64,000 bases of DNA from assembly GCF_041886205.1 (NCBI RefSeq), contig NZ_CP169029.1; one strand, 5' to 3'. Shown piece by piece: positions 43,853-52,710 of this stretch (positions within the stretch are counted from its first letter, which is position 1; the number at the start of each line of letters is the position of its first letter). Below the pieces are notes generated by a model. That model searched no databases. It saw nothing but the letters and a program-made list of their open reading frames with translations, and was not told the origin of the DNA. The DNA is from Escherichia coli (GTDB lineage: Bacteria > Pseudomonadota > Gammaproteobacteria > Enterobacterales > Enterobacteriaceae). The translations under genes were made by a program, and so were the position numbers.

Positions 43853-45313
43853 TTACAGCGCAGCCACACACTCGCGCGCACCGCGTTCGCACAGCTGCTG
43901 ATATGCCGCCGTCACCGCGCCAACAAAGTCCGCATTTTGCGGCAGATCATCGGCAAAAATACCGCTCAGGCCCAGCAACGCTTTCACGCGGTCTGCGCCC
44001 TGATTCTGCGCGTTGATCTTCTGGAACTCCGCCAGCATCGGGTCAACTACGTCAATGGCATTACCCTGCTCATCCACGCCCTGGGTGTAGCGCATCCAGC
44101 CAGCCACGCCCAGCGCCAGGTGACGCCAGCTGCCGCCGTTTTGCAGGTGCAGACGCACCGGATCCAGCAGACGCTGCGGTAACTTCTGGCTGCCGTCCAT
44201 CGCAATCTGCCAGGTACGGTGACGCAGAGACGGGTTGCTGAAACGCTCGATCAGCAGCGTCGCATAGGCGTTCAGGTCCGTACCTTCCGGCATCGACAGC
44301 GTTGGCGCTTGTTCCTGCATCATCAGGGCAAAGGCCGCTTTGCGATAATCCGGGTTAGTCATGGTGTCGGCAATAGTTTCATAGCCGCCGAGGTAACCGA
44401 GGTATGCCAGGAAAGAGTGGCTGCCGTTCAGCATACGCAGCTTCATCATTTCGAACGGCACAACGTCTGCAACGAACTGTGCGCCCACTTTATCCCAGTC
44501 CGGGCGACCATTAACGAAGTTATCTTCAATCACCCACTGACGGAACGGTTCGCAGGCAATGGCGCACGGGTCGTAAACACCCAGCTGGTCAGCAATTTCC
44601 TGTAAGGTTTCTGGCGTCGCCGCCGGAACGATGCGGTCAACCATGGTGCACGGGAAGGTGACGTTCTCTTCAATCCATGCCGCCAGCTGCGGATCGCGTG
44701 CCTGAGCCAGCCCAAGAACGGCAACCTTCGCCACATGACCGTTTTCTCGCACGTTGTCGCAGGACATCACCGTAAACGCTTTCAACCTTTTTTCACGACG
44801 CAGGCGCAACGCTTCTACGATGTAACCAATCGCGGACTTCGGCGCAGTCGGGTTTTCCAGATCGTGCTTGATCAGCGGGTTATTGAGATCCAGTTGACCG
44901 CTTGCCGCATCAGCGCAGTAGCCTTTTTCCGTGACCGTTAGAGAGACAATCGCCGTTTGCGGACGCGCCATCGCGTTGAGAATACCTTCGCAGCCATCGA
45001 TTTCCGGATGCAGCGCTTCTTTCATTGAACCGATAATTTTCAGCTCGGTGCTTTCTGCGCCTTTTTCCGCCACGGTGTACAGCAGTTGCTGTTTTTTCAG
45101 GTTTTCGATCAGCACGCGGTCGTTGCCTGGCATCAGGTTAACTTCGCAGATACCCCAGTCGCTGTCGGTGCTTTCCAGCAGGTGATGGGTATACAGCGCC
45201 TGGTGCGCGCGGTGAAACGCCCCGCAACCGAGATGCACAATGCGTGATTCCAGACGAGAATGATCCCATGACGGGCGGGCAACCGGCAGATTGCTGTCAA
45301 CAATAGTAGTCAT
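43853..45313 (-). CDS. uxuB: D-mannonate oxidoreductase (fructuronate reductase)
   Basis: 486 aa; mannitol-dehydrogenase-family Rossmann fold; synteny uxuA-uxuB-uxuR. Confidence 0.9.
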   Translation of the reverse strand: MTTIVDSNLPVARPSWDHSRLESRIVHLGCGAFHRAHQALYTHHLLESTDSDWGICEVNLMPGNDRVLIENLKKQQLLYTVAEKGAESTELKIIGSMKEALHPEIDGCEGILNAMARPQTAIVSLTVTEKGYCADAASGQLDLNNPLIKHDLENPTAPKSAIGYIVEALRLRREKRLKAFTVMSCDNVRENGHVAKVAVLGLAQARDPQLAAWIEENVTFPCTMVDRIVPAATPETLQEIADQLGVYDPCAIACEPFRQWVIEDNFVNGRPDWDKVGAQFVADVVPFEMMKLRMLNGSHSFLAYLGYLGGYETIADTMTNPDYRKAAFALMMQEQAPTLSMPEGTDLNAYATLLIERFSNPSLRHRTWQIAMDGSQKLPQRLLDPVRLHLQNGGSWRHLALGVAGWMRYTQGVDEQGNAIDVVDPMLAEFQKINAQNQGADRVKALLGLSGIFADDLPQNADFVGAVTAAYQQLCERGARECVAAL

Positions 45314-45393
45314 CGTAAACTCCAGAATCCGTCTTCAGAGAGTGACGGCAAGGAAGAAGGAACCGGCACGGCGCGCAGCCATGCCGGTGGATA

Positions 45394-46578
45394 TTAACGG
45401 CTAAAGAAAGCGCGCTGGATCGCCAGTTCGACACCGCGAACTTCGGCCAGGCCTTTCAGACGACCAATTGCGGAGTAACCTGGGTTGGTTTTCTTCTTCA
45501 GGTCGTCCAGCATCTGATGACCGTGGTCCGGACGCATCGGGATCAGGTCTTCTTTGCCTTCCGCTTTACGACGGTGTTCTTCTTCAACAATCGCTTTCAC
45601 CACTTCGTACATATCAACGTCACCGTTCAGGTGCGCCGCTTCGTGGAAGGTTTTGGGGTTATCTTCACGCATGGTGGAGCGCAGATGGGTGAAGTAAATG
45701 CGCGGACCAAACTGCTTGATCATATCAACCAGATCGTTGTCAGCACGCACGCCGTAGGAACCGGTGCACATGGTGAAACCGTTCGCCATGCTGTTTACGG
45801 TATCAACCATCCACTGCATATCTTCAATGGTGGAAACAATGCGCGGCAGGCCGAGGATCGGGCGCGGCGGATCGTCCGGGTGAACAGCCATACGCACGCC
45901 AACTTCTTCGGCAACCGGAATAATCGCTTTCAGGAAGACCGCAAAGTTTTCGCGCAGTTTGGCTTTGTCGATATCTTTGTACAGCTCCAGGTGTTTACGG
46001 AACTGGTCGAGGGTGTAGCCTTCTTCCGCGCCCGGAAGACCAGCAATGATGTTACGGGTCAGACGCGCTTTGTCTTCGTCGCTCATAGTGGCGAAGCGAA
46101 CAGCAGCCTGAGCAATTTCTTCTTCGGCGTAATCCGCTTCCGCGCCTGGACGTTTCAGGATATGCATTTCGAATGCAGCGAATTCGATCTGGTCGAAGCG
46201 CAGCGCTTTGGAGCCGTCTGGCAGCACGTATTCGAGGTCAGTACGGGTCCAGTCGAGCACCGGCATGAAGTTGTAGCACACGGTGCGAATGCCGCACTGC
46301 GCCAGGTTGCGCAGAGTCTGCTGATAGTTAGCGATCCACTGCTCATAGTTGCCAGTGTGGGTTTTGATATCTTCGTGAATTGGTACGCTTTCTACGACAG
46401 ACCACACCAGGCCTGCGTCTTCAACGATCGCCTTGCGTTTGAGGATCTCTTCTACGGACCATACTTCGCCGTTCGGGATATGGTGCAGCGCGGTAACCAC
46501 GCCAGTTGCGCCCGCCTGACGGACATCAGCTAAAGAAACCGGATCGTTTGGGCCGTACCAGCGCCAGGTCTGTTCCAT
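45394..46578 (-). CDS. uxuA: D-mannonate dehydratase
   Basis: 394 aa from [16 protein letters not shown]; synteny. Confidence 0.9.
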
Positions 46579-46740
46579 GATTTTTCCTCTTTCACATAGT
46601 GGGTTCCACAGCAAAGAGACGCGGAACCCTGGAGTTGTTTAGGTATCCGGATGAACAACCAGACCGCAGCCGTGGCGTTGCATCGGATGAGATGGCGTAT
46701 AAGTTCTACCTTTTGGTAAGACATGTCAACCCGAATTCTG

Positions 46741-46757
46741 AAATTGGTTAACCACAT
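46741..46757. promoter_or_regulatory. UxuR/ExuR operator-like palindrome in uxuA upstream region
   Basis: aaattggttaaccacat with TGGTTAACCA palindromic core. Confidence 0.5.
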
Positions 46758-46972
46758 CACAAGAAATCAACTCTATTGCTGGTTGATGCAAATGACAACA
46801 AAGGAGAAGCGGCGGTTAGTAATCGGGGGATGTGACATTCATCGCAATAATGGTTGACCAATTTACATAACGTGTCGCCCAAAATAACAATGGATTAACC
46901 TACTCCCCCATTGCATAAGTTGTGACCGACACAACAAAACTGATGTTGTTGCAAAGATTGCTATTTAGTTTT

Positions 46973-46987
46973 GGTATAAAAGGTATA
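46973..46987 (+). promoter_or_regulatory. Tandem GGTATA repeats, NanR-operator-like, about 50 bp upstream of nanM
   Basis: GGTATAaaaGGTATA; NanR is known to bind GGTATA repeats. Confidence 0.4.
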
Positions 46988-47036
46988 CAGGCACATGGTG
47001 CGACATTTGAATTCCAGCGATCAGGAGTAATTCACA

Positions 47037-48143
47037 ATGAATAAAACAATAACGGCGCTTGCTATCATGATGGCTTCATTTGCCGCAAACGCGTCTGTAT
47101 TACCGGAAACTCCTGTGCCATTTAAAAGTGGTACCGGAGCAATTGATAACGACACTGTCTACATTGGTTTAGGTAGCACAGGTACGGCATGGTACAAGCT
47201 GGATACACAGGCCAAAGATAAAAAATGGACAGCGTTAGCTGCATTCCCTGGCGGACCAAGAGATCAAGCAACCTCGGCATTTATTGATGGCAATCTGTAT
47301 GTGTTTGGCGGCATTGGCAAAAACAGCGAGGGCTTGACTCAGGTATTTAATGACGTACACAAATACAACCCCAAAACCAATAGTTGGGTTAAATTGATGT
47401 CGCACGCACCGATGGGCATGGCGGGTCATGTAACTTTTGTACACAACGGCAAGGCTTATGTTACTGGCGGTGTTAACCAGAATATCTTCAATGGCTATTT
47501 TGAAGATCTCAACGAGGCTGGAAAAGATTCAACCGCTGTAGATAAAATCAACGCTCACTATTTTGACAAAAAAGCAGAAGATTATTTCTTCAATAAGTTT
47601 CTGTTGTCTTTTGATCCCTCAACACAGCAATGGAGTTACGCTGGCGAATCCCCCTGGTACGGAACGGCTGGTGCGGCGGTTGTGAATAAAGGTGATAAAG
47701 CCTGGCTTATTAATGGCGAAGCCAAACCAGGATTGCGAACGGATGCCGTATTTGAACTTGATTTCACCGGTAATAATTTAAAATGGAATAAGCTTGCTCC
47801 CGTCTCATCACCAGATGGCGTCGCTGGCGGTTTTGCGGGGATAAGCAATGATTCTCTTATATTTGCCGGAGGGGCCGGATTCAAAGGTTCACGAGAAAAT
47901 TACCAGAACGGTAAGAACTATGCGCATGAAGGCCTGAAAAAATCATATAGCGCTGATGTTCATCTTTGGCATAACGGGAAATGGGATAAATCGGGCGAAT
48001 TGTCGCAAGGTCGGGCCTACGGAGTATCATTGCCCTGGAATAATAGTTTATTAATTATTGGCGGTGAAACTGCAGGCGGCAAAGCGGTGACGGATTCAGT
48101 TTTGATCTCTGTGAAGGATAATAAAGTCACAGTACAAAACTAA
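47037..48143 (+). CDS. nanM: N-acetylneuraminate mutarotase (Kelch-repeat beta-propeller, periplasmic)
   Basis: 368 aa; signal peptide MNKTITALAIMMASFAANA; repeated GG-containing Kelch blades (YVFGGIG, YVTGGVN, IFAGGAGF, LLIIGGE). Confidence 0.85.
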   Translation: MNKTITALAIMMASFAANASVLPETPVPFKSGTGAIDNDTVYIGLGSTGTAWYKLDTQAKDKKWTALAAFPGGPRDQATSAFIDGNLYVFGGIGKNSEGLTQVFNDVHKYNPKTNSWVKLMSHAPMGMAGHVTFVHNGKAYVTGGVNQNIFNGYFEDLNEAGKDSTAVDKINAHYFDKKAEDYFFNKFLLSFDPSTQQWSYAGESPWYGTAGAAVVNKGDKAWLINGEAKPGLRTDAVFELDFTGNNLKWNKLAPVSSPDGVAGGFAGISNDSLIFAGGAGFKGSRENYQNGKNYAHEGLKKSYSADVHLWHNGKWDKSGELSQGRAYGVSLPWNNSLLIIGGETAGGKAVTDSVLISVKDNKVTVQN

Positions 48144-48207
48144 CGCTTCAGGGCCCCAGTAAAGGGGCCCTGCTATCAATTTATCATATCAATTACGCGA
48201 AAATTAT

Positions 48208-49188
48208 ATGGACGCAATAATATCGCCCGATTATTACTATGTTCTTACCGTTGCTGGTCAGTCTAATGCCATGGCGTATGGCGAAGGACTGCCATTACCG
48301 GACAGGGAAGATGCGCCTCATCCCAGAATTAAACAATTAGCAAGATTTGCGCATACGCATCCCGGAGGCCCGTCATGTCACTTTAACGACATTATTCCAC
48401 TGACTCACTGCCCACACGATGTTCAGGATATGCAGGGTTATCACCATCCTCTGGCAACGAATCATCAAACACAGTACGGCACCGTTGGCCAGGCACTGCA
48501 TATTGCACGGAAATTACTGCCCTTCATTCCTGATAATGCAGGGGTTCTCATCGTTCCATGTTGTCGTGGCGGCTCGGCTTTTATCGCAGGCAGCGAAGGG
48601 ACATATTCAGAACGGCACGGAGCCAGCCATGATGCTTGTCGTTGGGGAACGGATACTCCGCTATACCAGGATTTAGTCAGCAGAACGCGAGCCGCACTGG
48701 CAAAAAATCCGCAGAACAAATTCCTCGGCGTATGCTGGATGCAAGGCGAATTTGACTTAATGACCTGTGACTACTCGTCACACCCTCAACACTTTAATCA
48801 TATGGTTGAAGCCTTTCGTAGGGATCTAAAACAATACCATTCTCAGCTTAATAAAATTACTGACGCGCCGTGGTTTTGCGGCGATACCACCTGGTACTGG
48901 AAAGAAAATTTCCCTCATGCGTATGAAGCTATTTATGGCAATTATCAAAATAATGTTTTAGCTAATATTATTTTCGTCGACTTCCAGCAACAAGGTGAAA
49001 GAGGACTGACGAACGCGCCTGATGAAGACCCGGACGATTTAATCATGGGATATTACGGTTCAGCGTACCGGTCACCGGAGAACTGGACGACGGCACTGCG
49101 AAGCAGTCATTTCAGCGCGGCAGCCCGTCGGGGGATTATTTCTGACAGGTTTGTAGAAGCAATTTTGCAGTTTTGGCGCGAAAGGTGA
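48208..49188 (+). CDS. nanS: 9-O-acetyl-N-acetylneuraminate esterase (SGNH-like)
   Basis: 326 aa directly downstream of nanM; LTVAGQSNAM Ser-containing motif near N-terminus. Confidence 0.8.
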   Translation: MDAIISPDYYYVLTVAGQSNAMAYGEGLPLPDREDAPHPRIKQLARFAHTHPGGPSCHFNDIIPLTHCPHDVQDMQGYHHPLATNHQTQYGTVGQALHIARKLLPFIPDNAGVLIVPCCRGGSAFIAGSEGTYSERHGASHDACRWGTDTPLYQDLVSRTRAALAKNPQNKFLGVCWMQGEFDLMTCDYSSHPQHFNHMVEAFRRDLKQYHSQLNKITDAPWFCGDTTWYWKENFPHAYEAIYGNYQNNVLANIIFVDFQQQGERGLTNAPDEDPDDLIMGYYGSAYRSPENWTTALRSSHFSAAARRGIISDRFVEAILQFWRER

Positions 49189-49195
49189 GCGTTCA

Positions 49196-49846
49196 TTAAT
49201 TTGATTTATTCGCATCCATTAGCGCTTTTAACTGCTCCGGCGTAAACGGTGGTTTGCGTCGGTGCAGCATCGCATGGCAATTAGGGCACACAGGAAGCAA
49301 ATCATTAACTGGATCCAGCTGGTAATCCTCTTTAATGGCTGAAAGCGGCACCAGGTGATGCACATGGATAAAGCCTTCAGCGATATCACCATAGATCTTC
49401 ACCAGATCAACGCCGCATACGTTGCATTGGCATCCATGATGTTCGACCGCTTTATCTCGGGCCTTTTTATCGCGTTCATAGCGGTTTACTGTCACCTTTA
49501 TCGCCGCACCTTCAACGTAGGTCCCCTGCGACGGCAGCTCATCCGGGAACAGAACGTCGGCTATGGGAGCCGCAGCGGCTTTATCCTGATGAATATGAAA
49601 TCCCTGCTCTATGAGTAGCTTGACACATTTAGATTTTATTCCGCCGGTGAAATCCGCAGGGGTAAATTGCGTCCCCGTCATCAATGTCGCTGCGATGCCA
49701 GCAATCGCCTTCGAGGGGTAACGTCGGCCATGATATTCAATTTCATACAACCGTGCAGGCTGGAACTGATGAGTTTCTCCCGCATCCCATAAATGAATAG
49801 CTTCGATGATATACCGCCGCGGAAGATGATCGGGGAGTTTATTCAT
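49196..49846 (-). CDS. HNH endonuclease with N-terminal putative DNA-recognition domain (candidate modification-dependent restriction enzyme)
   Basis: 216 aa; SD AAGGA; C-terminal HNH motif (CQCNVCGVD ... HVHHLVPL ... CPNCHAMLH); stop codon 8 bp from nanS stop (convergent). Confidence 0.7.
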   Translation of the reverse strand: MNKLPDHLPRRYIIEAIHLWDAGETHQFQPARLYEIEYHGRRYPSKAIAGIAATLMTGTQFTPADFTGGIKSKCVKLLIEQGFHIHQDKAAAAPIADVLFPDELPSQGTYVEGAAIKVTVNRYERDKKARDKAVEHHGCQCNVCGVDLVKIYGDIAEGFIHVHHLVPLSAIKEDYQLDPVNDLLPVCPNCHAMLHRRKPPFTPEQLKALMDANKSN

Positions 49847-49992
49847 AGAGAATGTCCTTATACGTTCTCAGAACAAGCAGCAAAAAAACAAATGAGATCA
49901 AAGTAATATATCTTCACTTGCAGGCTTGAACAGCAGAAAATTTGCGAGCATGATCGCAATTATTTCACTGCCAGGGAGGTAATGACTCCAAC

Positions 49993-50496
49993 TTATTGAT
50001 AGTGTTTTATGTTCAGATAATGCCCGATGACTTTGTCATGCAGCTCCACCGATTTTGAGAACGACAGCGACTTCCGTCCCAGCCGTGCCAGGTGCTGTCT
50101 CAGATTCAGGTTATGCCGCTCAATTCGCTGCGTATATCGCTTGCTGATTACGTGCAGCTTTCCCTTCAGGCGGGATTCATACAGCGGCCAGCCATCCGTC
50201 ATCCATATCACCACGTCAAAGGGTGACAGCAGGCTCATAAGACGCCCCAGCGTCGCCATAGTGCGTTCACCGAATACGTGCGCAACAACCGTCTTCCGGA
50301 GCCTGTCATACGCGTAAAACAGCCAGCGCTGGCGCGATTTAGCCCCGACATAGCCCCACTGTTCGTCCATTTCCGCGCAGACGATGACGTCACTGCCCGG
50401 CTGTATGCGCGAGGTTACCGACTGCGGCCTGAGTTTTTTAAATGGCGGAAAATCGTGTTGAGGCCAACGCCCATAATGCGGGCGGTTGCCCGGCAT
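49993..50496 (-). CDS. insB: IS1 transposase InsB
   Basis: 167-aa ORF matching IS1 InsB ([19 protein letters not shown]...). Confidence 0.9.
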
Positions 50497-50690
50497 CCAA
50501 CGCCATTCATGGCCATATCAATGATTTTCTGGTGCGTACCGGGTTGAGAAGCGGTGTAAGTGAACTGCAGTTGCCATGTTTTACGGCAGTGAGAGCAGAG
50601 ATAGCGCTGATGTCCGGCGGTGCTTTTGCCGTTACGCACCACCCCGTCAGTAGCTGAACAGGAGGGACAGCTGATAGAAACAGAAGCCAC
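50415..50690 (-). CDS. insA: IS1 protein InsA
   Basis: 91 aa, zinc-finger [37 protein letters not shown]; overlaps insB as in IS1 (frameshift fusion InsAB'). Confidence 0.9.
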
Positions 50691-50766
50691 TGGAGCACCT
50701 CAAAAACACCATCATACACTAAATCAGTAAGTTGGCAGCATCACCCAGCAAACGAACCTGGATGAT

Positions 50767-51057
50767 TTGCCGGATAAAGCCAGCATCATTGACGCGTTTT
50801 TTACCTTTGCTCAACGCGAACAGCAACGTGAAGCAGAAGCCTTGATCAAAGAAGAAAATCTCAATGAAGAGGCGGCGAAACGCTATATTCGCACGTCTTT
50901 AAAACGCGAATACGCCACCGAAAATGGCACGGAATTAAACGAGACATTGCCAAAACTCAGTCCGTTAAATCCGCAATATAAGACGAAAAAACAGACGGTT
51001 TTCCAGAAGATCGTCGCGTTTATTGAGAAGTTTAAAGGTGTAGGCGGGCAGATATAA
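50767..51057 (+). pseudogene. Truncated ORF (C-terminal fragment) abutting the IS1 end
   Basis: 96-codon frame beginning 22 bp after the IS1 terminus; charged, helical-looking sequence; followed by a perfect hairpin cctgatctg/cagatcagg; identity unknown. Confidence 0.35.
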
Positions 51058-51241
51058 TGTATTAATCCGAACCTGATCTGGCAGATAGCTGTCAGATCAG
51101 GACTGAGCTAATACAAATTAATGTCGAACCGAAAATACCAACGCCTGTACCAACATTTTTCGTTTGCGATGGGTTGGAATTGGTTAGCCCTGAGAGAGTT
51201 AAAATAGCGAGAAAGATAGGTAACTAACGGATTTCAGACAC

Positions 51242-51266
51242 AAAAAAAGCCGCTCTTGAGCGGCTC
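51242..51266 (-). terminator. Rho-independent terminator of leuX
   Basis: Minus strand: gccgctc / tcaa / gagcggc followed by a T-run (plus-strand aaaaaaa at 51242-51248). Confidence 0.75.
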
Positions 51267-51282
51267 GATTTGCATACGGTGT

Positions 51283-51367
51283 GGTGCCGAAGGCCGGACT
51301 CGAACCGGCACGTATTTCTACGGTTGATTTTGAATCAACTGCGTCTACCGATTTCGCCACTTCGGCA
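51283..51367 (-). tRNA. leuX: tRNA-Leu (anticodon CAA)
   Basis: 85-nt minus-strand sequence GCCGAAGTGGCGAAATCGGTAGACGCAGTTGATTCAAAATCAACCGTAGAAATACGTGCCGGTTCGAGTCCGGCCTTCGGCACCA; anticodon loop TTCAAAA; next to ahr as in K-12. Confidence 0.92.
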
Positions 51368-51561
51368 CTGAAGAGGTATGCGGAAAACGTTGTGGATTAT
51401 ACCTGTCGCACGCCACCATGCAAGCGCCAGCTTGCTCGCACCTCGCTAAGTGCTGAAATTTTCAGCATTGCATACAGCGATGTGTAACCTTTGTCACACT
51501 CCAGGCACCCCGCCCTGCCATGCTCTACACTTCCCAGACCACACCAGAGAAGGACCAAAAA

Positions 51562-52581
51562 ATGTCGATGATAAGAAGCTATGCCGCAAAAGAAGCGGGC
51601 GGCGAACTGGAAGTTTATGAGTACGATCCCGGTGAGCTGAAGCCACAAGATATTGAAGTGCAGGTGGATTACTGCGGGATCTGCCATTCCGATCTGTCGA
51701 TGATCGATAACGAATGGGGATTTTCACAATATCCGCTGGTTGCCGGGCATGAGGTGATTGGGCGCGTGGTGGCACTCGGGAGCGCCGCGCAGGATAAAGG
51801 TTTGCAGGTCGGTCAGCGTGTCGGGATTGGCTGGACGGCGCGTAGCTGTGGTCACTGCGACGCCTGTATTAGCGGTAATCAGATCAACTGCGAGCAAGGT
51901 GCGGTGCCAACAATTATGAATCGCGGCGGTTTTGCCGAGAAGTTGCGTGCGGACTGGCAATGGGTGATTCCACTGCCAGAAAATATTGATATCGAGTCCG
52001 CCGGGCCGCTGTTGTGCGGCGGTATCACGGTCTTTAAACCACTGTTGATGCACCATATCACTGCTACCAGCCGCGTTGGGGTAATTGGTATTGGCGGGCT
52101 GGGGCATATCGCTATAAAACTTCTGCACGCAATGGGATGCGAGGTGACAGCCTTTAGTTCGAATCCGGCGAAAGAGCAGGAAGTGCTGGCGATGGGTGCC
52201 GATAAAGTGGTGAATAGCCGCGATCCGCAGGCACTCAAAGCACTGGCGGGGCAGTTTGATCTCATTATCAATACTGTGAACGTCAGCCTCGACTGGCAGC
52301 CTTATTTTGAGGCGCTGACCTATGGCGGTAATTTCCATACGGTCGGTGCGGTTCTCACGCCGCTGTCTGTTCCGGCCTTTACGTTAATTGCGGGCGATCG
52401 CAGCGTCTCTGGTTCTGCTACCGGCACGCCTTATGAGCTGCGTAAGCTGATGCGTTTTGCCGCCCGCAGCAAGGTTGCGCCGACTACCGAACTGTTCCCG
52501 ATGTCGAAAATTAACGACGCCATTCAGCATGTACGCGATGGTAAAGCGCGCTACCGAGTGGTCCTGAAAGCCGACTTCTGA
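51562..52581 (+). CDS. ahr: NADPH-dependent aldehyde reductase (Zn-ADH family)
   Basis: 339 aa from [14 protein letters not shown]; Zn-ADH motif [12 protein letters not shown], Cys cluster CGHCDAC, Rossmann GIGGLGH. Confidence 0.85.
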
Positions 52582-52710
52582 TCCCTTTGCCGGGTGCCTG
52601 TCGCCCGGCACTTAAATCTCTTTGGAAGGCATCTCGCAATCTGCTTAATTTAGCGGTGAAGAGTGCATAGCCGTTGCCTATACTCCAGGCAGGAAACTGG
52701 AGGAAATCTC

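What the first reader, a model, noticed from the sequence alone, without database searches (positions are those of the whole stretch)
49196..49846. Compact HNH endonuclease with an N-terminal extra domain, convergent and 8 bp from nanS
The 216-aa protein has a clear C-terminal HNH motif (CxxC ... HH ... CxxCH) and an approximately 130-aa N-terminal domain of unknown type (EAIHLWDAGETHQFQPARLYEIEYHGRRYP). HNH nucleases fused to modified-base reader domains act as type IV restriction enzymes, and this one lies inside the leuX-associated variable segment.
Basis: inference. Interest (0 to 1): 0.5.

Follow-up and report, generated by a model that had tools for sequence, protein, structure and literature searches.

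The report
ScoMcrA-head HNH nuclease, orphaned by IS1
This is a real, intact and selectively maintained 216-aa nuclease gene at the E. coli leuX defence hotspot; its N-terminal part is the uncharacterised "head" domain of the restriction enzyme ScoMcrA, and here an IS1 element has removed the phosphorothioate-sensing restriction gene that normally sits beside it.

Summary
The ORF at 49196..49846 (-) encodes 216 aa with a complete McrA-type HNH motif. It converges on nanS with a 7-nt gap and lies 1.4 kb from tRNA-Leu(CAA) leuX.

In other proteins the module is fused almost only to type IV restriction parts: EVE, SRA, DUF3427, McrB-like AAA+, NOV_C and HNH.

In E. coli, Citrobacter and Klebsiella the gene forms a divergent two-gene cassette with an EcoWI-family SBD-HNH enzyme, which is phosphorothioate-dependent. 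In this window IS1 replaces that partner, leaving only its conserved upstream palindrome.

The gene is under purifying selection without its partner (dN/dS 0.05-0.19) and no phage record holds the full protein. About 23% of complete E. coli genomes carry it.

Best reading: a stand-alone type IV-like defence nuclease whose reader has no known ligand. This is a known kind in an uncharacterised variant, of moderate interest.

The parts
49196..49846 (-). Complete CDS of the 216-aa ScoMcrA_N(head)-HNH endonuclease; the stop codon is 49196-49198.
   Evidence: ORF listing. 97% identical to cluster P0001 (2133 member sequences, precomputed Pfam PF26345). RefSeq calls the orthologues 'HNH endonuclease', e.g. 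WP_001037970.1.
49577..49846 (-). Codons 1-90: ScoMcrA-type N-terminal head domain, predicted as helix 10-22, strands 34-38 and 41-44, helices 45-57 and 73-80, strand 84-87.
49478..49576 (-). Codons 91-123: linker predicted with low confidence, with conserved PDE and EG motifs and the start of the VNRYERD block.
   Evidence: pLDDT <50 at residues 91-101 and 111-123. Length-variable region in the family alignment.
49199..49477 (-). Codons 124-216: McrA-type HNH (beta-beta-alpha-Me) nuclease domain with a CxxC...CxxC zinc site.
   Evidence: Pfam PF01844. Alignment to EcoKMcrA 6ghc and TagI 6ghs. Foldseek top hits are EcoKMcrA, ScoMcrA, Cap5, Cas5-HNH, TagI and VcaM4I.
49847..49977 (.). Remaining 131 nt of the divergent intergenic region. 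It holds the head-HNH ribosome-binding site (AAGGA, 8 nt before the ATG) and presumably its promoter.
   Evidence: Sequence. Collinear with the intergenic region of strains C4, M18 and 536. The consensus scan found no strong sigma-70 match.
49942..49959 (.). Orphan palindrome TTGCGAGCATGATCGCAA, which belongs to the lost EcoWI-like gene (operator or 5'-UTR hairpin).
   Evidence: Found. The 20-nt core is invariant in 18 loci of Escherichia, Citrobacter, Klebsiella, Enterobacter and Raoultella, always 21-22 nt upstream of the SBD-HNH ATG, including loci without a head-HNH.
49978..50745 (-). IS1 (768 bp) that replaces the SBD-HNH (EcoWI-like) partner gene. Its inverted repeat starts 6 nt before the position of that gene's ATG.
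   Evidence: InsA/InsB ORFs. Terminal inverted repeats read. Junction shown in alignment A1. The flanking 9-mers differ (TGCCAGGGA vs CAGCAAACG), so there is no target-site duplication. This points to a deletion or recombination event rather than a simple insertion (inference).
50746..51057 (+). 3' remnant (last ~96 codons) of a type I restriction R subunit.
   Evidence: ORF 50767..51057. Matches positions 924-1028 of 1032 of phrog_3830. RefSeq names 'type I restriction endonuclease subunit R, EcoR124 family' under the match.
51282..51366 (-). tRNA-Leu(CAA), i.e. leuX, the anchor of the defence hotspot.
   Evidence: ARAGORN. Rfam tRNA, 59.4 bits.
48208..49188 (+). nanS (sialate O-acetylesterase, 326 aa), the convergent core-genome neighbour that bounds the variable segment.
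   Evidence: ORF. RefSeq annotation of the orthologous gene in strain 536.

Best explanation
The gene encodes a stand-alone restriction-type (type IV-like) defence nuclease.

Shown by sequence and structure prediction:
- A C-terminal McrA-type HNH domain has every catalytic and zinc-binding residue.
- It is joined by a roughly 30-aa linker, predicted with low confidence, to an ~90-aa N-terminal domain homologous to the 'head' domain of the type IV enzyme ScoMcrA.

Inferred mechanism:
- The head domain tethers the enzyme to foreign DNA, most likely through a DNA modification or backbone feature that E. coli's own Dam/Dcm-methylated DNA lacks.
- The tethered HNH domain then nicks or cuts nearby, as in other reader-linker-HNH enzymes.

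Ancestrally the gene is one half of a mobile, divergently transcribed two-gene cassette. The other half is an EcoWI-family SBD-HNH enzyme that cuts phosphorothioated DNA. ScoMcrA carries both sensing modules (head and SBD) in one chain. In this window an IS1-associated event removed the SBD-HNH gene, so the head-HNH gene now stands alone, apparently still functional.
For: Nuclease half:
- Pfam HNH.
- Residue-level alignment with EcoKMcrA, including HH, DN, CPNCH and the final H.
- 25 invariant family columns are retained.
- Foldseek top hits are all defence-type HNH nucleases: EcoKMcrA, ScoMcrA, Cap5, Cas5-HNH, TagI and VcaM4I.

Head half:
- Profile E=2.4e-8 to ScoMcrA residues 4-94.
- Pfam name ScoMcrA_N on homologues.

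Association with type IV enzymes:
- The head module is found in proteins of 100-1567 aa (599 representatives at E<=1e-3).
- Of 79 longer carriers, 39 have HNH, 16 HNH_2, 14 EVE, 7 NOV_C, 4 DUF3427, 4 McrB-type AAA_5 and 3 SAD_SRA.
- AFDB matches carry names such as EcoKMcrB DNA-binding domain, YDG, EVE and DUF3427.
- The same HNH subfamily (150-175 bits) is fused elsewhere to DUF3427, EVE or Mrr_N.

Context:
- leuX is E. coli defence hotspot #37, where 97% of isolates carry defence genes (PMC12707154).
- Neighbours elsewhere include Zorya, Wadjet, type I R-M, and GmrSD plus a STAND NTPase.
- The divergent SBD-HNH partner is conserved in E. coli, C. farmeri, three other Citrobacter, K. aerogenes and Klebsiella sp. 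R445, in unrelated surroundings.
- The partner scores 438 bits on NF045808 against a cut-off of 180. EcoWI restricts dnd+ plasmids (PMC7461809).

Functional maintenance:
- dN/dS is 0.05-0.19 among E. coli alleles, including strains whose partner is truncated.
- The gene is present at >=80% coverage in 1231 of 5426 complete genomes, and about 905 of these lack an intact partner.
- It is not a phage or homing HNH: no full-length match in 50,697 phage records.
Against: - No ligand is known for the head domain. The ScoMcrA structure paper calls it small, of unknown function and flexibly attached, and PT and 5mC recognition there are assigned to the SBD and SRA domains.
- hhalign against Mrr_N is negative (probability 9.7%).
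- The domain's net charge is about zero across the family (mean +0.25), so it is not an obviously basic DNA binder.
- The window clade differs from the wider domain family at four otherwise >=91%-conserved positions: S31A, D35E, P45S and K88D.
- PADLOC gives only partial, sub-threshold hits, and no paper on this protein was found.
- In the few alleles compared, one C. freundii locus has a homologue about 3.5 kb from a dnd-like PT-modification cluster. This argues against phosphorothioate as its target.
- The promoter scan found no consensus promoter in the remaining 131 nt, so expression after the IS1 event is unverified.
Confidence: 0.5

Rival explanations
1. The protein is an accessory subunit or regulator of the EcoWI-like enzyme rather than an independent nuclease. 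Under this reading the head-HNH protein works only with the SBD-HNH enzyme, as a split ScoMcrA. It could form a heteromer that supplies a second strand cut, or its head domain could bind the conserved palindrome to control the partner's expression. In this window it would then be a functionless leftover.
For: - The divergent pairing, with a 137-180 nt spacer, is conserved across three genera and unrelated neighbourhoods.
- Head and SBD are fused in one chain in ScoMcrA, which is a Rosetta-stone argument for joint function.
- An invariant palindrome lies between the two genes.
- A second E. coli paralogue (58% identity) on an ICE has an SBD-HNH gene 4 kb away.
Against: - EcoWI alone cuts PT-DNA in vitro and restricts dnd+ plasmids in vivo as a homodimer.
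- About 905 complete E. coli genomes keep the head-HNH gene without an intact partner, and dN/dS stays at 0.05-0.19 in such strains.
- Joint retention (326 genomes) is no higher than the roughly 387 expected if the two genes were kept independently.
- Homologues in Pantoea, Shewanella, C. freundii, K. pneumoniae, Atlantibacter and Pseudescherichia have no SBD-HNH gene within 6-8 kb.
- The palindrome travels with the SBD-HNH gene even where the head-HNH gene is absent (L033, L045, L047).
Confidence: 0.15
2. The protein is a defence effector nuclease whose head domain is not a DNA reader. Instead it is a protein-interaction or auto-inhibitory module that couples a non-specific HNH nickase to some other sensor or keeps it inactive until infection.
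For: - The head domain appears as an extra N-terminal bead on proteins that already have a bona fide reader (EVE, SRA, SBD, McrB N-domain), so it may add something other than DNA reading.
- Stand-alone head-only proteins of 90-100 aa exist.
- The domain's net charge is near zero.
- It makes no dimer contacts and is mobile in ScoMcrA.
- It is also fused to STAND NTPases and to a ZorC-like protein.
Against: - In the 216-aa family the head is the only non-catalytic domain, and an untargeted HNH nuclease would be toxic to the host.
- No conserved partner gene other than the dispensable SBD-HNH gene was found.
- The weak structural neighbours are DNA-binding winged-helix or HTH domains.
Confidence: 0.2
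3. The gene is a decaying or neutral remnant of the leuX island with no present function in this strain, for example because the IS1 event silenced it.
For: - The locus is heavily eroded: IS1, an hsdR fragment and the lost partner gene.
- The consensus scan found no promoter.
- The gene has been lost repeatedly in E. coli, by a 583-bp internal deletion in strain 536-type genomes and by larger deletions in O157.
Against: - The ORF is full length with all family-invariant residues.
- In the few alleles compared, dN/dS is 0.07-0.15 against other alleles, and the window copy is 99.6% identical to strain M18.
- The native 131 nt upstream, including the ribosome-binding site, is intact.
Confidence: 0.1

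Closest known systems
ScoMcrA (Sco4631, PDB 5zmm), the type IV PT- and 5mC/5hmC-dependent endonuclease of Streptomyces coelicolor
   Different: ScoMcrA has 561 aa, with SBD and SRA reader domains between the head and the HNH. The window protein has neither. The ScoMcrA activities are explained by SBD and SRA, so they say nothing about what a head-only enzyme recognises.
EcoWI and the NF045808 SBD-HNH phosphorothioate-dependent restriction endonucleases
   Same: It is the ancestral divergent neighbour of this gene in E. coli, Citrobacter and Klebsiella. It is also a small reader-HNH defence nuclease without a methyltransferase.
   Different: The window protein scores 15.4 bits on NF045808 against a cut-off of 180. 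The EcoWI-like gene is absent from this window.
EcoKMcrA (PDB 6ghc)
   Same: It has the same type of HNH domain, with CxxC, HH, CPNCH and a final H. It has the same overall plan of an N-terminal specificity domain plus a C-terminal HNH, and many sources annotate homologues as 'restriction enzyme A'.
   Different: The McrA N-terminal domain (NEco) is unrelated. Only residues 123-198 of the window protein align.
SRA-HNH (TagI), EVE-HNH (VcaM4I) and DUF3427/PUA-HNH modification-dependent enzymes
   Same: They have the same reader-linker-HNH architecture. Close relatives of this HNH domain are fused to EVE, DUF3427 and Mrr_N, and the head domain itself co-occurs with EVE, SRA and DUF3427.
   Different: The window protein's only reader candidate has a different fold, with no match to the PUA or SRA superfamilies.
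[quoted passage not shown]
   Different: No sequence or significant fold link to DpnI-type wH or to Mrr_N was found. The secondary-structure order also differs from a canonical winged helix. Those enzymes are toxic in Dam+ E. coli, whereas this gene is a resident of E. coli, which is normally Dam+ (background knowledge).

Membership tests
HNH / beta-beta-alpha-Me nucleases (Pfam PF01844) | Significant match to the family profile | tested here: met
   PF01844 at aa 141-197, E=1.8e-4, 22 bits. Precomputed PF01844 on most homologues. PHROG HNH families down to E=2.7e-9.
HNH / beta-beta-alpha-Me nucleases (Pfam PF01844) | Catalytic His (general base), Asn/Asp and metal-binding His, plus the CxxC...CxxC zinc site | tested here: met
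   H163-H164, N181-D182, H191 and H195, with C141, C144, C187 and C190. These are invariant or nearly so in 58 homologues and align with EcoKMcrA.
HNH / beta-beta-alpha-Me nucleases (Pfam PF01844) | Metal-dependent DNA cleavage | not testable with these tools
   This needs purified protein.
ScoMcrA_N head domain (Pfam PF26345) | Sequence homology to the ScoMcrA N-terminal ~90 residues | tested here: met
   phmmer hit to 5zmm residues 29-93. Profile of 68 domains to 5zmm residues 4-94, E=2.4e-8. PF26345 is precomputed on a 97%-identical cluster, and the name ScoMcrA_N is given. The tool's own Pfam copy is older and lacks this family.
ScoMcrA_N head domain (Pfam PF26345) | Same fold as the crystallised head domain | tested here: met
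Type IV (modification-dependent) restriction enzymes | Nuclease domain joined to a domain that recognises modified DNA | tested here: inconclusive
   The nuclease is present. The N-domain is found almost only in type IV-like architectures, but its ligand is unknown and its fold matches no known reader.
Type IV (modification-dependent) restriction enzymes | No cognate methyltransferase; located among defence genes | tested here: met
   No methyltransferase is adjacent in the window or in L007, L016, L022 or L012. leuX is defence hotspot #37. Neighbours elsewhere include Zorya, Wadjet, GmrSD and type I R-M.
Type IV (modification-dependent) restriction enzymes | Cleavage or restriction that depends on a DNA modification | not testable with these tools
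   This needs in vitro digestion and in vivo restriction assays.
PT-dependent SBD-HNH endonucleases (NCBIfam NF045808; EcoWI, SprMcrA) | Sulfur-binding domain (SBD, PF26340) and a score above the family cut-off | tested here: not met
   NF045808 scores 15.4 bits against a cut-off of 180. The ScoMcrA match is to the head, not the SBD (residues 91-260). A local SBD profile hits the neighbour genes but never this protein.
EcoKMcrA family | NEco N-terminal 5mC/5hmC-binding domain | tested here: not met
   Only the HNH part aligns: query residues 123-198 to McrA residues 199-269.
Winged-helix (DpnI-type or Mrr_N) reader-HNH enzymes | Homology of the N-domain to DpnI wH or Mrr_N | tested here: not met

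The most novel reading that the evidence does not exclude
The ScoMcrA head domain may be a previously unrecognised sensor of a DNA modification or backbone feature, different from 5mC/5hmC (SRA, EVE), PT (SBD) and 6mA (wH). The 216-aa head-HNH protein would then be the minimal natural enzyme built on it. With the EcoWI-like gene it would form a mobile 'split ScoMcrA' cassette of two complementary modification-dependent nucleases. Such a cassette would guard enterobacteria against DNA from strains carrying modification-based systems, such as Dnd or Dpd, that occupy the same leuX hotspot.
Probability: 0.25. Interest if true: 0.65.

Novelty: new variant of a known kind. Interest (0 to 1): 0.4.

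Why it matters
The head domain is a widespread orphan module of type IV restriction enzymes. It had 599 representative clusters at E<=1e-3 and 372 AlphaFold-DB matches at E<=0.001, and it is fused to EVE, SRA, DUF3427, McrB and STAND partners. Its ligand has been unknown since the ScoMcrA structure of 2018.

The 216-aa protein is the simplest natural context in which to find that ligand, because the head is the only non-catalytic domain. It is common: about 23% of complete E. coli genomes carry it.

If the head reads a DNA mark, the enzyme would be a further barrier to horizontal transfer in E. coli. It might also become a mapping reagent in the way EcoWI became EcoWI-seq.

The conserved pairing with an EcoWI-family gene, and the repeated independent loss of either half, also give a small, clean example of turnover at the most occupied E. 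coli defence hotspot.

Tried and rejected
2. A phosphorothioate-binding SBD in this protein. Rejected: NF045808 scores 15.4 bits against a cut-off of 180, and the ScoMcrA match lies in residues 4-94, outside the SBD.
3. Remote homology of the head to the Mrr_N winged helix, which replaces it in sister HNH proteins. hhalign probability is 9.7%.
4. A conserved third gene. The 678-aa hypothetical protein next to the cassette in E. coli C4 and 536 and the 675-aa one next to the C. freundii homologue are unrelated (BLASTP E=1.1) and have no NCBIfam hit.
5. A local SBD profile, built from enterobacterial sequences only, run against 150 head-domain representatives to count head+SBD fusions. It gave no hits and is too narrow to be informative.
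6. The search for homologous proteins with the head-domain profile, to obtain up-to-date Pfam architectures. It returned only short or fragmentary proteins of at most 154 aa, so it gave no fusion statistics.
7. A phage or homing-endonuclease origin. Only 8 of 50,697 phage records match, all in the HNH part alone.
8. A known RNA family in the intergenic region. Rfam finds only the leuX tRNA.
9. A consensus sigma-70 promoter upstream of the gene. None was found at the tool's threshold. By eye there is only a weak TGTTCA-16-TATATT candidate.
10. Locating the exact window arrangement in complete E. coli genomes. No record covers 80% or more of 45000-52700, so the source strain was not identified.

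Full report
**Observation**

It runs 49196..49846 on the minus strand, starts with ATG and encodes 216 aa. The product contains the quoted peptide and a full HNH signature: C141-x2-C144, H163-H164, C187-P-N-C190-H191 and H195. Pfam assigns HNH (PF01844) to residues 141-197. phmmer against the PDB aligns residues 123-198 with the HNH domain of EcoKMcrA (6ghc), matching HH, DN, CPNCH and the last His.

nanS (48208..49188, +) converges on the gene with 7 nt between the stop codons. tRNA-Leu(CAA), i.e. leuX, lies at 51282-51366.

One correction applies. The extra N-terminal module is about 90 aa, not 130. AlphaFold2 with a 58-sequence alignment gives a confident N-domain (aa 1-88), a low-confidence linker (aa 91-123) and a confident HNH domain.

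**What the N-terminal domain is**

It is not SRA, EVE, PUA or YTH. The only solved protein that matches it by sequence is ScoMcrA (PDB 5zmm), and the match is to residues 29-93. These lie N-terminal of the sulfur-binding domain, which spans residues 91-260 according to PMC6224610.

- A profile of 68 copies of the domain matches ScoMcrA residues 4-94 with E=2.4e-8.
- Homologues carry the precomputed Pfam family PF26345, named ScoMcrA_N. The tool's own Pfam copy predates this family.

The ScoMcrA structure paper describes this head domain as small, of unknown function and flexibly attached, and says the other three domains make the dimer contacts. A search of the held literature for the Pfam accession, the domain name or the RefSeq protein accessions found nothing.

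**Where else the two halves occur**

Searching 1.84 billion cluster representatives with residues 1-118 gave 599 hits at E<=1e-3. The ~85-aa module is present at the N-terminus or internally in proteins of 100-1567 aa.

Pfam scans of 79 longer carriers found HNH in 39, HNH_2 in 16, EVE in 14, NOV_C in 7, DUF3427 in 4, McrB-type AAA_5 in 4, nSTAND3 in 4 and SAD_SRA in 3. Individual sequences show head-SRA-HNH, head-EVE-HNH and head-EVE-McrB layouts. Foldseek against AFDB50 found 372 matches at E<=0.001, with the same kinds of names.

The reverse test gives the same picture. A scan of species-representative genomes returned 72 loci in which the same HNH subfamily (150-175 bits) is joined to other N-terminal regions. 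These regions include DUF3427, EVE and Mrr_N.

Both halves of the protein therefore belong to the shuffling repertoire of modification-dependent restriction enzymes. This is association, not proof that the head reads a modification.

**Genomic anatomy and the missing partner**

In complete E. coli genomes the gene has a divergent neighbour annotated 'phosphorothioated DNA-binding restriction endonuclease' (290 aa). That neighbour scores 438 bits on NCBIfam NF045808 against a cut-off of 180. This is the EcoWI family: SBD-HNH enzymes that cut GpsAAC/GpsTTC DNA and restrict dnd+ plasmids (PMC7461809).

A chimeric query showed that 326 of 5,426 genomes have both genes contiguous (for example strain C4). 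The head-HNH region is present at >=80% coverage in 1,231 genomes and the SBD-HNH gene in 1,707. About 387 joint occurrences would be expected if the two were retained independently.

Several distinct lesions were seen:
- The SBD-HNH gene is truncated after about 150 nt in M18- and SC516-type genomes.
- IS1 is inserted at other positions.
- A clean 583-bp deletion removes the promoter and most of the head-HNH gene in strain 536-type genomes.
- In O157-type genomes the head-HNH gene and nanS are missing and the SBD-HNH gene abuts nanM.

In this window the IS1 inverted repeat (IS1 = 49978-50745) starts 6 nt before the place where the SBD-HNH ATG would be. On its other side IS1 abuts the last ~96 codons of a type I hsdR. 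There is no target-site duplication. An IS1-associated deletion or recombination therefore removed the partner gene and more (inference).

**The cassette outside E. coli**

The same divergent pair, with a 137-180 nt spacer, is found in several other species:
- Citrobacter farmeri, next to a T6SS cluster.
- Klebsiella aerogenes, next to a type I R-M system and an Mrr_N-HNH gene.
- Klebsiella sp. R445, next to Wadjet.
- Three further Citrobacter species.

This shows that the pair moves as a unit. More distant homologues are unpaired. These are in Pantoea, Shewanella (beside GmrSD_N and a STAND NTPase), C. freundii, K. pneumoniae, Atlantibacter and Pseudescherichia. One C. freundii locus has a dnd-like cluster about 3.5 kb away. 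This argues against phosphorothioate as the target of the head-HNH protein.

**Is the gene functional on its own?**

Pairwise dN/dS among five full-length E. coli alleles is 0.05-0.19, including strains in which the partner is truncated. The window copy keeps every family-invariant residue. It also keeps the native 131 nt upstream with an AAGGA ribosome-binding site, although no consensus promoter was detected.

The full protein is absent from phages. Only 8 HNH-only matches were found in 50,697 records. The leuX locus is described as E. coli defence hotspot #37, the most occupied of 41 hotspots (PMC12707154).

**Interpretation**

The best-supported reading (confidence about 0.5) is a stand-alone type IV-like defence nuclease. 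A head domain that targets foreign DNA is tethered by a flexible linker to a McrA-type HNH domain, and the gene has been orphaned from its EcoWI-like cassette partner.

Because E. coli is normally Dam+ and Dcm+ (background knowledge), any modification target must be something else. The step 'head domain binds a DNA mark' is inferred, not shown.

Points against this reading:
- The head has no known ligand.
- It matches no known reader fold.
- Its net charge is near zero.
- It is dispensable for PT-DNA binding by truncated ScoMcrA constructs (residues 91-260 and 91-442).

The rivals are:
- an accessory or regulator of the SBD-HNH enzyme (0.15);
- an effector nuclease whose head domain is a protein-interaction or auto-inhibitory module (0.2);
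- a silent remnant (0.1).

**Comparison with known families**

By tested criteria the protein is a member of the HNH and ScoMcrA_N families. It is not a member of the SBD-HNH (EcoWI), EcoKMcrA, SRA-HNH, EVE-HNH or wH/Mrr_N-HNH families. It works most like those reader-HNH enzymes, but with an uncharacterised reader.

I rate it a new variant of a known kind, of moderate interest. The gene is catalogued but unstudied, and its value lies in offering the minimal context in which to assign a function to a widespread orphan domain.

Noticed in passing
window 49942-49959; also L007 7747-7766, L016 5881-5900, L018 5844-5863, L033 2276-2295, L045 6753-6772, L047 6749-6768: An 18-bp palindrome TTGCGA-N6-TCGCAA, with 20-nt core AATTGCGATSATGCTCGCAA, is invariant across Escherichia, Citrobacter, Klebsiella, Enterobacter and Raoultella, while the surrounding intergenic DNA has diverged. 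It always lies 21-22 nt upstream of the EcoWI-like SBD-HNH start codon, even where no head-HNH gene is present. It is probably an operator or a 5'-UTR hairpin of that gene. In the window it is an orphan. From memory it resembles a degenerate CRP-type site (TGCGA-N6-TCGCA), and Rfam has no match.
   Followed up: partly
L018 4260-6636 (Klebsiella aerogenes); L045, L047, L033: There are three small HNH restriction-type genes in a row: Mrr_N-HNH (219 aa), SBD-HNH (289 aa) and head-HNH (211 aa). The HNH domain of the Mrr_N-HNH protein is about 55% identical to that of the window protein, so the two look like reader-swapped sisters. In C. portucalensis, Raoultella and Enterobacter the SBD-HNH gene is paired with the Mrr_N-HNH gene instead of the head-HNH gene.
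   Followed up: partly
window 45394-47037: uxuA (45394..46614, -) is followed directly by nanM (47037..48143, +). In the E. coli genomes inspected, gntP, the whole fim operon and nanC lie between them. The window strain therefore appears to lack type 1 fimbriae genes and nanC through a deletion of roughly 12 kb or more. No complete E. coli genome in the collection covers 80% or more of 45000-52700.
   Followed up: no
window 49978-51057: IS1 is flanked by non-matching 9-mers, on one side by the cassette's intergenic region and on the other by the last ~96 codons of an EcoR124-family type I hsdR. In this strain the whole leuX island has therefore been reduced to about 2 kb: leuX, the hsdR remnant, IS1 and the head-HNH gene.
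   Followed up: partly
L006 6001-6199 (strain 536), equivalent to window 49296-49878: A clean 583-bp deletion, seen in at least 13 of the sampled complete E. coli genomes (the class with 26-27% query coverage), removes the promoter and codons 1 to about 181 of the head-HNH gene while leaving the EcoWI-like gene intact. It is the mirror image of the state in the window.
   Followed up: yes
L008-L011 6001-6654 and 10744-11616: E. coli also carries a second, 58%-identical head-HNH paralogue (217 aa, on 565 contigs) on an integrative conjugative element with TraI_2, ArdC and TraG genes. A second SBD-HNH gene lies 4 kb away, so the two gene types co-occur again on a mobile element.
   Followed up: no
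L021 9123-12651 (Citrobacter freundii): A dnd-like phosphorothioation cluster (Aminotran_5, DNA_S_mod_dnd_assoc_4 and a DndD-like SMC ATPase) lies about 3.5 kb from a head-HNH homologue at the ahr/yjgR (leuX-equivalent) locus, with no SBD-HNH gene present.
   Followed up: no
L001 8009-8575, L002, L003, L005 versus window 48208-49188: RefSeq marks nanS as an incomplete pseudogene in the five genomes inspected whose RefSeq annotation was viewed and that carry an intact head-HNH gene. It also annotates a 29-aa 'hypothetical protein' just downstream of the HNH stop codon. In the window, and in strain 536, nanS is a full 326-aa ORF.
   Followed up: no
proteins P0271-P0359; AFDB entries of 88-103 aa: Many stand-alone ScoMcrA_N proteins of about 90-100 aa exist in metagenomes and in actinomycete and planctomycete genomes. 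This suggests the head domain can also act as a separate small protein.
   Followed up: no
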